Virus record (IMG/VR): IMGVR_UViG_2537561992_000036
Direction: 5' to 3' (one strand)
Origin: a virus
Lineage: Duplodnaviria > Heunggongvirae > Uroviricota > Caudoviricetes
Length of the DNA stretch: 24,178 bases
The position numbers are program-made. Positions 21,001-24,000 of this stretch are shown piece after piece (position 1 is the stretch's first letter; every line of letters begins with the position of its first letter).

Positions 21001-24000
21001 GTACATCACTAATGTTATTTCCTTCTATCATTTTCCTTGTGAGTTCTGGCTGCGCATGGCGCGGTCCTTTTTTTTTAAGTACCTGCCACTGGCAGATGGT
21101 CATCCTGTGATTTGATTCCGCTTCCGGCTTTTTAACTCTGTTCCTCTACACGGGAGAAATTCGATGTCGATTAAACATTACGATGTTGTCAGGGCGGCGT
21201 CGCCGTCAGACCTTGCGGAAAAGCTGACACACAAACTGAAAGAGGGCTGGCAGCCATACGGCGGACCGGTTGCCATTACGCCGTACACACTGATGCAGGC
21301 GGTGGCTATTGAAGGAGAGCCACAGGTCGGCCCTTCATCTGAGCCGGATTGGTACTACGTCATCGTACTGGCCGGGCAATCCAATGCCATGGCTTACGGT
21401 GAAGGGCTTACGGTGAAGGGCTTCCGCTGCCGGATTCATACGATGCTCCGGATCCGCGCATTAAACAGCTGGCGCGCCGCAGTACAGTGACGCCGGGCGG
21501 GGCTGCCTGCAGATATAACGATATTATTCCGGCTGACCACTGTCTGCATGATGTGCAGGATATGAGTACGCTGAATCATCCGAGGGCTGACCTGAGCAAA
21601 GGGCAGTACGGCTGTGTCGGCCAGGGTTTACATATTGCCAAAAAACTGCTCCCGTATATCCCGAATAACGCGGGGATCCTGCTGGTACCATGCTGTCGTG
21701 GTGGTTCGGCATTTACCCAGGGCGCGGAGGGGACATTCAGCGAGTCCACGGGGGCCAGTCAGGATTCGGCACGCTGGGGGGTGGGCAAGCCGTTATATCA
21801 GGATCTGATTTCCCGCACAAAAGCGGCATTGCAGAAAAATCCCAAAAACGTTCTGCTGGCCGTCTGCTGGATGCAGGGTGAGTTTGACATGAGCGCCGCC
21901 ACCCACGTACAGCAACCTGCGCTGTTTACAGCCATGCTGACACAGTTTCGTGCTGACCTCTCCGTGTTTAACGCGCAGTGCCATGGTGGCAGTGCTGCAG
22001 ATGTGCCGTGGGTTTGTGGTGACACGACGTATTACTGGAAAAATACATACGCTACCCAGTACGACACCGTGTACGGCGGGTATAAAAACAGGGAGAGTGA
22101 GGGCGTTTATTTTGTGCCCTTCATGACAGACGGTAACGGCGTCAATACCGCCACTAACGCGCCGGCAGAAGATCCGGATATTCCGGCATCAGGATATTAC
22201 GGTGCGGCATCGAGAACGAATGGAAACCAGGTATCATCAAACCGCCCGACACATTTCAGTTCATGGGCGCGCAGGAGCATTATTCCGGATCGTCTGGCAA
22301 CCGCTATTCTGAACGCAGCCGGGCGCACCTCAGCCTTCATCAGTGGTAAGGCACCGGAAATCAAACCCTCGCCCGGCGGCAACACGCCATCGGGTCCGTC
22401 TGCAGATACGTCCGTTCGCACAATCTCCCTGCTGCCGGCAGCCGGAGAGGCTGCTGCGCAGGGCTGGAGCATTAAGGATGGCGGAATTCAGTTGTCAGAT
22501 GGTGTATTTAAGATCACCAAGCAGAGCAATAAAACCTGGTCCCTGACGCATCCGGTGGATGACGCAATTACCCTGCTGACACAGGGCGGCAGACTGACCT
22601 GTAAGTTCCGCCTGTCAGGCGCACTGACCAACAATCAGTTCGGGCTGGGGATTTATCTGTATACGGATGCTCCCGTTCCTGATGGTGTGGCGATGACGGG
22701 TACCGGTAATCCGTTCCTGATGTCGTACTTCACTCAGACCACTGACGGCAGAGTGAATCTGATGCATCACAGGAAAGCCGGAAACACGAAGCTGGGGGAG
22801 TTCGGCGATTACGGTAACGACTGGCAGACGCTGGAGCTGGTGTTCACCGCCGGCAGTGCCACGGTTACTCCGAAACTGAATGGAGTGGCTGGCCCGGCAT
22901 TCCAGGTTATAAAAGACAGTCTGACACTGGGACTGAATGCGCTGACGCTGACGGATGTTACAAAAAATGCAGCGTATGGCGTTGAGATAGAAAGTCTGAT
23001 GCTGGAGATAAATGCACCGGCAGCATAATAAAAAAAGCCAGCGACTGACCTGAAAAAGAAGACGCTGGCTAAAAGGCCTTATATGTTTGTAGAGACTTAT
23101 TTTTCACAGACAGCAATGATGCCTGTCAATATATTATCAATATGCGGATTGTTTCAGTTACAGATGCCTTATTAAGGAAAAAACAGCCAGCACTGACTTT
23201 CGGTGGAGAGGTGCTGGCTCAAAAGGATAGATGTACTTCACATGTTGCTTCTATATGGCAGTACATTTTCTGACAGACAGTGACGGATGTTGTCAAGATA
23301 TTGTGTCATTTATAACCTGAATCAGGGGAGGCCGGAATGTTATCTGGCATTTTTAGCAGAGCCTGAATGCCATAATCACGGCTCCCGGCGTTGGCCGTCA
23401 GTGGGTGACACTGGCGGCCTTTTTGTTTTTCTTTACTTTCATTTTCTGTCGGCGGTGACGGAGACATACATCAGATGGAAAAAATCACAACAGGTGTGTC
23501 ATACACCACGTCAGCGGTGGGGACGGGATACTGGTTACTGCAGCTGCTGGACAAAGTCTCTCCGTCCCAGTGGGTGGCAATAGGTGTGCTGGGAAGTCTG
23601 CTGTTTGGCCTGCTGACGTATCTGACAAATCTTTATTTCAAGATTAAAGAAGATAAGCGTAAGGCTGCGAGAGGTGAATAATGTCGCCGTCATTACGCAA
23701 GGCTGTTGCAGCTGCTATTGGTGGTGGGGCTGTTGCCATAGCGTCTGTGCTCATCACTGGTCCAGGTGGTAACGATGGTCTGGAAGGTGTCAGCTACATA
23801 CCATACAAAGATATCGTTGGCGTATGGACTGTATGTCACGGACACACCGGAAAAGACATCATGCCCGGTAAAACGTATACCGAAGCAGAATGCAAAGCCC
23901 TCCTGAATAAAGACCTTGCCACGGTCGCCAGACAAATTAACCCGTACATCAACGTCGATATACCGGAAACAACGCGCGGCGCTCTTTACTCGTTCGTTTA

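What the first reader, a model, noticed from the sequence alone, without database searches (positions are those of the whole stretch)
21164..23028. NanS-p-like esterase inactivated by a 14-bp tandem duplication
GCTTACGGTGAAGG occurs twice in tandem at 21392-21419, just after the codons for the GQSN catalytic motif. It shifts the frame and gives a 108-aa fragment followed by a 513-aa ORF in the original frame. The mutation is not homopolymer-associated, so it is unlikely to be a base-calling artefact.
Basis: seen in the sequence. Interest (0 to 1): 0.6.

Follow-up and report, generated by a model that had tools for sequence, protein, structure and literature searches.

The report
Frameshifted prophage sialate esterase pseudogene
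One of several prophage copies of a sialic-acid de-acetylating enzyme gene in an O26:H11-type E. coli has been broken by a real 14-base tandem duplication; this is an ordinary pseudogene that public annotation already flags as frameshifted.

Summary
GCTTACGGTGAAGG occurs twice in tandem at 21392-21419, six bases after the GQSN codons. It splits the gene into a 108-aa ORF (21164-21490) and a 513-aa ORF (21487-23028). Removing one copy restores a 616-aa protein with the NanS-p architecture: DUF1737, SASA/SGNH esterase and a lectin-like DUF6645 domain. That protein is 99.8% identical to the phage 434 esterase. It matches E. coli NanS (3PT5) at E=4.5e-122. The orthologous prophage in O111:H- 11128 carries an intact gene that differs only by the 14 bases and one SNP. 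O103:H2 also has an intact 1851-nt gene in the same gene neighbourhood. The duplication is not an artefact: the exact junction is present in 81 of 5,426 complete E. coli genomes (O26:H11, O111:H11, one O103 strain). It most likely arose by slippage between two GGCTT repeats 14 bases apart. It separates the nucleophile Ser73 from blocks II, III and V (His359), so esterase activity should be lost. The host prophage is decayed, and a carrier genome holds at least one intact paralogue. RefSeq already annotates the locus as "frameshifted". Verdict: real, correctly interpreted, ordinary and already known; low interest.

The parts
21164..23028 (+). nanS-p-type sialate O-acetylesterase pseudogene (whole former coding region, 1865 nt; 1851 nt when repaired)
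   Evidence: Repaired translation is 616 aa with DUF1737, SASA and DUF6645. It matches 3PT5 and 6YP6. RefSeq annotates the identical locus in strain 11368 (ECO26_RS04555) as 'frameshifted'.
21392..21419 (+). Exact 14-bp tandem duplication, 2 x GCTTACGGTGAAGG; the inactivating lesion
   Evidence: It appears as a 14-nt insertion relative to the intact O111:H- orthologue. The junction probe 21386-21425 matches 81 of 5,426 complete genomes.
21391..21424 (+). GGCTT microhomology: the pentamer is at 21391-21395, 21405-21409 and 21419-21423. The ancestral single-copy sequence has two GGCTT repeats 14 bp apart, which gives a substrate for slippage.
   Evidence: Read directly from the sequence. TRF gives 2.4 copies.
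21164..21490 (+). 5' fragment ORF, 108 aa: 82 native residues (complete DUF1737 domain, linker, SGNH block I GQSNA with Ser73), then 26 out-of-frame residues and TGA
21487..23028 (+). 3' remnant ORF, 513 aa, ancestral frame from residue 104: blocks II (RGGSAF), III (MQGEFD) and V (THFS, His359) plus the lectin-like DUF6645 domain. It lacks the nucleophile. Its GTG overlaps the upstream TGA (GTGA) and no Shine-Dalgarno sequence is visible.
21048..21076 (+). Terminator-like hairpin plus T-run just upstream of the gene. Late transcripts would presumably read through it under Q antitermination (inference).
   Evidence: The Q gene at about 18917-19690 is annotated in the identical 11368 locus.

Best explanation
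This is a recently inactivated copy of a prophage nanS-p-type sialate O-acetylesterase gene. It lies in the late region (Q ... gene ... holin-lysozyme) of a decayed lambdoid prophage integrated next to ybhC in an O26:H11-type E. coli. In the ancestral gene two GGCTT pentamers lie 14 bp apart. Slipped-strand mispairing between them during replication most likely duplicated the 14-bp interval (inferred). The +14 insertion shifts the frame after residue 82, giving 26 wrong residues and a TGA. The nucleophile Ser73 (block I, GQSNA) is left on a 108-aa fragment. Blocks II, III and V (His359) and the carbohydrate-binding C-terminal domain lie downstream, in a frame with no evident ribosome-binding site. 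No active esterase should be made from this locus (inferred from the sequence, not assayed). The lesion is inherited clonally, since it is found identically in 81 complete genomes. It is probably neutral: the prophage is full of other pseudogenes and IS elements, and the genome keeps other nanS-p-like copies.
For: The exact tandem duplication is, with a chance expectation of about 1e-4. Repair gives a 616-aa ORF with DUF1737, SASA and DUF6645. That ORF aligns without a break across the junction to NanS 3PT5 (residues 60-379, E=4.5e-122) and to 6YP6, and to intact relatives. The orthologous gene in O111:H- 11128, with the same flanking genes, is intact and differs only by the 14 nt and one SNP. 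O103:H2 is intact in the same gene neighbourhood. The single-copy 187-nt sequence is 100% identical in many intact 'SASA family carbohydrate esterase' genes. The junction is in 81 of 5,426 genomes. The NanS motif blocks (17 GQSNA 21, RGGSAF, MQGEFD, SHFS 303) come from PMC10792757, and their split across the two ORFs is. Prophage decay shows as a TolA-like gene with an internal stop, partial sieB and cII, a frameshifted replication gene, IS3 and IS66 insertions and a truncated protease gene. Homologous sequence occurs at 8-13 places per genome among the listed top hits, and there is an intact 625-aa paralogue in carrier strain 06_3235. RefSeq labels the locus 'frameshifted'.
Against: Loss of activity is inferred from sequence only. 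The GTG of the 3' ORF overlaps the TGA of the 5' ORF (GTGA), so some reinitiation cannot be excluded. Both frames are open over 21403-21487, so a +1 ribosomal shift could in principle restore a near-native protein. The slippage mechanism is inferred from the microhomology and was not observed. Neutrality is not shown: the allele is too young (0-1 further substitutions) to measure selection.
Confidence: 0.9

Rival explanations
1. Sequencing or assembly artefact: the real genome has one copy of the 14-mer and an intact gene.
For: The window does differ from strain 11368 by several homopolymer-length differences, so the assembly may not be error-free.
Against: The lesion is not in a homopolymer. 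The exact 40-nt junction is present in 81 independently assembled complete genomes from many laboratories, including reference strain 11368. The 2-kb region is 100% identical in the top-listed records.
Confidence: 0.01
2. Two separate genes are the normal, functional arrangement here: a stand-alone DUF1737 protein followed by a second protein.
For: According to a preprint, most DUF1737 proteins in Pfam are single-domain (about 2,528 of about 3,000; 10.64898/2026.04.10.717836). In some RefSeq records the region is listed under two feature names.
Against: Orthologues in the same prophage context are single 1851-nt genes. 341 phage records cover at least 80% of the repaired protein in one place. 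The break falls inside the esterase fold, 9 codons after the nucleophile, not at a domain boundary. The 26 C-terminal residues of the fragment are out-of-frame sequence.
Confidence: 0.02
3. Reversible switch, or recoding. Either the tandem duplication acts as a contingency locus that reverts by precise loss of one copy, or a +1 ribosomal frameshift or GTGA-coupled reinitiation yields functional product. Alternatively the retained DUF1737 fragment has a function of its own, for example capsid decoration.
For: Short tandem duplications can revert by slippage (general knowledge). The two frames overlap open over 21403-21487, and the stop and start overlap as GTGA. The 108-aa fragment keeps the whole DUF1737 domain, which the phi24B preprint identifies as the capsid-binding part (residues 2-57) of the homologous gp84.
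Against: All 81 carriers show the same two-copy junction at 100% identity over the matched bases, and no copy-number variation was seen. No Shine-Dalgarno sequence precedes the GTG. A reinitiated product would lack Ser73. In strain 11368 the prophage's head region is interrupted by an IS66-family element and no major capsid gene is annotated in the stretch examined, so it probably has no capsid of its own to decorate. No +1 frameshift signal was sought or found.
Confidence: 0.05

Closest known systems
Escherichia phage 434 SASA-family carbohydrate esterase (OL657226.1, 43456-45303), and the orthologous intact prophage gene of E. coli O111:H- 11128 (WP_000023272.1)
   Same: The repaired protein is 99.8% identical over all 616 residues to the phage 434 protein. 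It differs from the O111:H- gene by one SNP apart from the duplication, with identical flanking genes.
   Different: The window's copy carries the 14-bp tandem duplication and is frameshifted.
NanS-p esterases of Stx phages (Z1466 of 933W, VT2-Sakai orf42, vb_24B_21/gp84 of phi24B); Neu5,9Ac2 esterases described in PMC8065619, C-terminal domain structure 6YP6
   Same: Same three-domain architecture, the same position in the late region upstream of the lysis genes, and conserved GQSN, RGGSAF, MQGEFD and HFS blocks.
   Different: Only 52-57% identical (57% to VT2-Sakai). The linker lacks the SISSP motif seen in the VT2-Sakai sequence and discussed for phi24B gp84. This prophage carries no stx. 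The gene is broken.
[quoted passage not shown]
   Same: The esterase domain (residues 60-379) aligns end to end at E=4.5e-122, with the Ser and His catalytic positions conserved.
   Different: NanS lacks the N-terminal DUF1737 and the C-terminal lectin-like domain, and it is a chromosomal gene of the nan regulon rather than a prophage gene (established knowledge).

Membership tests
NanS-p (prophage-encoded sialate O-acetylesterase) | Three-domain architecture: N-terminal DUF1737, SASA/SGNH esterase, C-terminal lectin-like jelly-roll (DUF6645) | tested here: met
   On the repaired 616-aa sequence, Pfam gives DUF1737 at 4-49, SASA at 66-262 and DUF6645 at 467-577, all above the gathering score. 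6YP6 'NanS-p' matches at E=1.1e-29 over 421-613.
NanS-p (prophage-encoded sialate O-acetylesterase) | SGNH/SASA catalytic blocks: GQSNA (nucleophile Ser), RGGSAF, MQGEFD, xHFS (His) | tested here: met
   All four are present in the repaired protein, at residues 71, 174, 232 and 358. They correspond to the blocks listed for 3PT5 in PMC10792757.
NanS-p (prophage-encoded sialate O-acetylesterase) | Encoded in the late region of a lambdoid prophage, between Q (or stx) and the lysis cassette | tested here: met
   The annotation of the 11368 locus (99.8% identical to the window over this stretch) reads Q, hypothetical, DUF3927, this gene, class II holin, lysozyme RrrD.
NanS-p (prophage-encoded sialate O-acetylesterase) | Uninterrupted reading frame encoding all catalytic blocks on one polypeptide | tested here: not met
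   The frame shifts after residue 82. Block I sits on the 108-aa ORF and blocks II, III and V on the 513-aa ORF. The locus is therefore a pseudogene of the family, not a functional member.
NanS-p (prophage-encoded sialate O-acetylesterase) | Esterase activity on Neu5,9Ac2 or O-acetylated mucin sialic acids | not testable with these tools
   This needs an enzyme assay of the native and repaired alleles.
Slippage-generated tandem-duplication frameshift pseudogene | Extra copy absent from orthologues, length not a multiple of 3, premature stop, short direct repeats flanking the duplicated unit in the ancestral sequence | tested here: met
   There is a 14-nt insertion relative to O111:H-, a stop at 21488-21490, and GGCTT repeats 14 bp apart in the single-copy allele.
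Phase-variable (contingency) repeat locus | Repeat copy number varies among closely related isolates | tested here: inconclusive
   All 81 carriers have the identical two-copy junction. I could not list all genomes of the same clonal lineage to see whether any holds a single copy at this locus.

The most novel reading that the evidence does not exclude
The duplication did not simply kill the gene but uncoupled it. The 108-aa product keeps a complete DUF1737 domain, which a 2026 preprint reports as a capsid-binding decoration domain in phi24B. It might act as a stand-alone decoration protein on capsids of co-resident phages. The tandem repeat might also allow occasional reversion to a full esterase, making the locus a slow on/off switch in the O26:H11 lineage.
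Probability: 0.04. Interest if true: 0.35.

Novelty: already known. Interest (0 to 1): 0.1.

Why it matters
It matters little. It removes one of several redundant sialate O-acetylesterase genes from a decayed prophage. There are two modest practical uses. First, the 28-bp junction is a clean clonal marker, found in 81 of 5,426 complete genomes of serotypes O26:H11, O111:H11 and one O103 strain. Second, anyone counting functional nanS-p copies in O26:H11 should leave this one out. The locus is also a clear example of a microhomology-flanked tandem-duplication frameshift.

Tried and rejected
- **NCBIfam:** a scan of the repaired protein found no family.
- **SNP 22595:** I tried this, the only other difference from the O111:H- orthologue, as a lineage marker to look for carriers of the same allele without the duplication. 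The T allele is in 679 records, including many paralogues, so it is uninformative.
- **IS3 junction at 14121:** I tried this as a marker for the same prophage. It is in only 25 genomes, fewer than the 81 with the duplication. This suggests the IS insertion is younger and says nothing about reversion.
- **Primary papers:** the NanS structure paper (PMC3149194) and the Rangel/Vimr NanS diversity paper (PMC5038012) are not held. I took the catalytic blocks from PMC10792757 instead.
- **nanS-p diversity paper:** PMC10462455 does not contain the words truncated, frameshift, pseudogene or duplication.
- **RNA genes:** the Rfam and tRNA scans found nothing in or next to the gene, only the two IS3 ALIL pseudoknots elsewhere in the window.
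- **Promoters:** promoter-like sites in the region were no more frequent than in shuffled sequence.
- **Not done:** structure prediction and the large protein-database searches, because the sequence matches to 3PT5, 6YP6 and the intact orthologues already settle the identity.

Full report
**Observation**

The sequence at 21392-21419 is GCTTACGGTGAAGG twice in exact tandem, and the 14-mer occurs nowhere else in the window. Tandem Repeats Finder reports period 14, 2.4 copies and 100% matches at 21391-21423, because GCTT follows a third time. The expected number of exact 14-bp tandem duplications in 24,178 bases of this composition is about 9.5e-5. The only other exact tandem duplication with a unit of 8-50 bp in the window is an 8-mer at 17450. 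The GQSN codons (residues 71-74) end 6 nt before the duplication.

**What the gene is**

Deleting one copy of the 14-mer gives an uninterrupted 616-aa ORF. Pfam finds DUF1737 (4-49), SASA sialic-acid-specific acetylesterase (66-262) and DUF6645 (467-577), all above the gathering score. NCBIfam finds nothing. Against solved structures, residues 60-379 match E. coli NanS/YjhS (3PT5) at E=4.5e-122. That alignment runs straight across the duplication site. Residues 421-613 match the NanS-p C-terminal domain (6YP6) at E=1.1e-29.

The SGNH/SASA blocks listed for 3PT5 in PMC10792757 are GQSNA with the nucleophile Ser19, RGGSAF, MQGEFD and SHFS with His301. All four are present in the repaired protein, at residues 71, 174, 232 and 358.

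Among phage records, the repaired protein is 99.8% identical to the esterase of phage 434. It is about 96% identical to YjhS of some Stx1a phages and of YYZ-2008. It is only 52-57% identical to the Stx2a-phage type, such as VT2-Sakai.

**Context**

From 11244 to its end, the window is 99.8% identical to a prophage of O26:H11 strain 11368. It carries one extra IS3-family copy at about 9177-10492. That prophage lies next to ybhC. This rests on the O111:H- orthologous locus, where the integrase gene abuts ybhC, and on the window's 100% match to that stretch.

The 11368 annotation around the gene reads: an LpxR-family gene, YlcG, Q, a hypothetical gene, DUF3927, this gene, a class II holin, lysozyme RrrD, then a lysis protein. 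The prophage is decayed. It has a TolA-like gene with an internal stop, partial sieB and cII genes, a frameshifted replication gene, IS3 and IS66 insertions and a truncated S49 peptidase gene. RefSeq already annotates this locus (ECO26_RS04555, 1865 nt) as "DUF6645 domain-containing protein, frameshifted". It does the same in strain 2010C_5028.

**Is the duplication derived and real?**

The orthologous prophage in O111:H- 11128 has the same flanking genes and an intact 1851-nt gene (WP_000023272.1). Base by base, that gene differs from the window's gene only by the 14-nt insertion and one SNP at 22595. O103:H2 strain 20151001 also has an intact 1851-nt gene in the same gene neighbourhood. The repaired 187-nt stretch around the site is 100% identical in many intact "SASA family carbohydrate esterase" genes, for example in O111 and O121 strains and in E2348/69. 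The single copy is therefore ancestral.

I used a 40-nt junction probe (21386-21425) designed so that single-copy alleles share no 28-nt word with it. It matched 81 of 5,426 complete E. coli genomes, all at 100% identity. They include O26:H11, O111:H11 and O103 strain RM8385, and two genomes hold the junction at two places. These serotypes probably form one clonal group; that is an inference from my own knowledge and was not tested. The number of independent assemblies, including reference strain 11368, rules out an artefact. This holds even though the window differs from 11368 by a few homopolymer lengths elsewhere. The IS3 junction at 14121 occurs in only 25 genomes, which suggests that insertion is younger than the duplication.

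**Mechanism**

- **Origin (inferred).** The single-copy sequence CCATGGCTTACGGTGAAGGGCTTCCG contains two GGCTT pentamers 14 bp apart. Slipped-strand mispairing between them would duplicate exactly the observed unit.
- **Consequence (shown by translation).** The protein is native to residue 82. It then reads 26 out-of-frame residues (TVKGFRCRIHTMLRIRALNSWRAAVQ) and stops.
- **What each ORF holds.** Ser73 and block I lie on the 108-aa fragment. Blocks II, III and V and the lectin-like domain lie in the 3' ORF.
- **Translation of the 3' ORF.** Its first possible start is a GTG that overlaps the upstream TGA, and no Shine-Dalgarno sequence precedes it.
- **Activity (inferred, not assayed).** An esterase needs the nucleophile and the His on one fold, so the locus should give no activity.

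**Significance**

NanS-p genes are multi-copy in EHEC. A review reports seven or ten in EDL933 and five in an O104:H4 strain, with active esterases produced from the alleles tested (PMC8065619). In the listed top-hit genomes the 2-kb query finds 8-13 homologous places per genome. One carrier, strain 06_3235, has an intact 625-aa paralogue, 83% identical to the repaired protein, inside a P2-like prophage. Loss of this copy is therefore probably buffered and neutral, and it fits the general decay of the prophage. The allele is too young for any test of selection: it has at most one further substitution.

**Rivals**

- **Artefact:** rejected.
- **"Two genes are normal":** rejected. Orthologues are single genes, and the break lies inside the esterase fold rather than at a domain boundary.
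- **Residual possibility:** a reversible switch, recoding, or an independent role for the retained DUF1737 fragment cannot be excluded. A 2026 preprint reports that the DUF1737 domain of phi24B gp84 (residues 2-57) binds capsid hexons as a decoration protein (10.64898/2026.04.10.717836), and the 108-aa fragment keeps that domain whole.
- **Against the residual possibility:** all 81 carriers have the same two-copy junction. In 11368 the prophage's head region is interrupted by an IS66-family element, and no major capsid gene is annotated in the stretch examined. No translation signal precedes the 3' ORF. I give this about 4-5%.

**Verdict**

The feature is an ordinary, lineage-fixed frameshift pseudogene of a well-known gene family, and RefSeq already flags it. 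Novelty: already known. Interest: low.

Noticed in passing
window 9177-10492 (+) and 14121-15431 (-): Two IS3-family (IS629/IS1203-like) copies in inverted orientation, each with an ALIL programmed-frameshift pseudoknot (9517-9633 and 14980-15096). The first copy is absent from O26:H11 strain 11368. The left junction of the second is in only 25 of 5,426 genomes.
   Followed up: partly
window 17568-18527 (-): An LpxR-family lipid A deacylase gene sits as cargo on the opposite strand, between a truncated antiterminator fragment and the YlcG/Q genes of the prophage. The same arrangement is seen in the O111:H- orthologous prophage.
   Followed up: no
L005 1587-3464 (NZ_CP074939.1, strain 06_3235): An intact 625-aa protein aligning with the repaired protein over all three domains, encoded inside a P2-like prophage between lysC and tail genes. 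It is 83% identical to the repaired protein, with a nearly identical C-terminal half, which suggests recombination between nanS-p-like genes of unrelated phage types.
   Followed up: partly
window 21012-21080: A dense patch of substitutions and small indels relative to strain 11368. It spans a terminator-like hairpin (21048-21066 plus T-run) just upstream of the esterase start, while the flanks are nearly identical. It may be a small recombination patch.
   Followed up: no
window 11285, 18542, 18656, 19754, 23177: Five homopolymer runs are one base shorter in the window than in strain 11368. These may be real variation or long-read assembly errors in the window's source.
   Followed up: no
NZ_CP074879.1 (2010C_5028) and NZ_OY754853.1: Two genomes contain the duplication junction at two places each. 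The second place was not located. It could be a duplicated prophage segment or gene conversion into a paralogue.
   Followed up: no
window 19859-20617 and 20703-20861 (+): Between Q and the esterase gene, where Stx phages carry stx, this prophage has a 252-aa ORF (annotated as a 247-aa hypothetical protein) that looks hydrophobic on reading its translation, and a small DUF3927 gene. No tRNA genes are present in the window.
   Followed up: no
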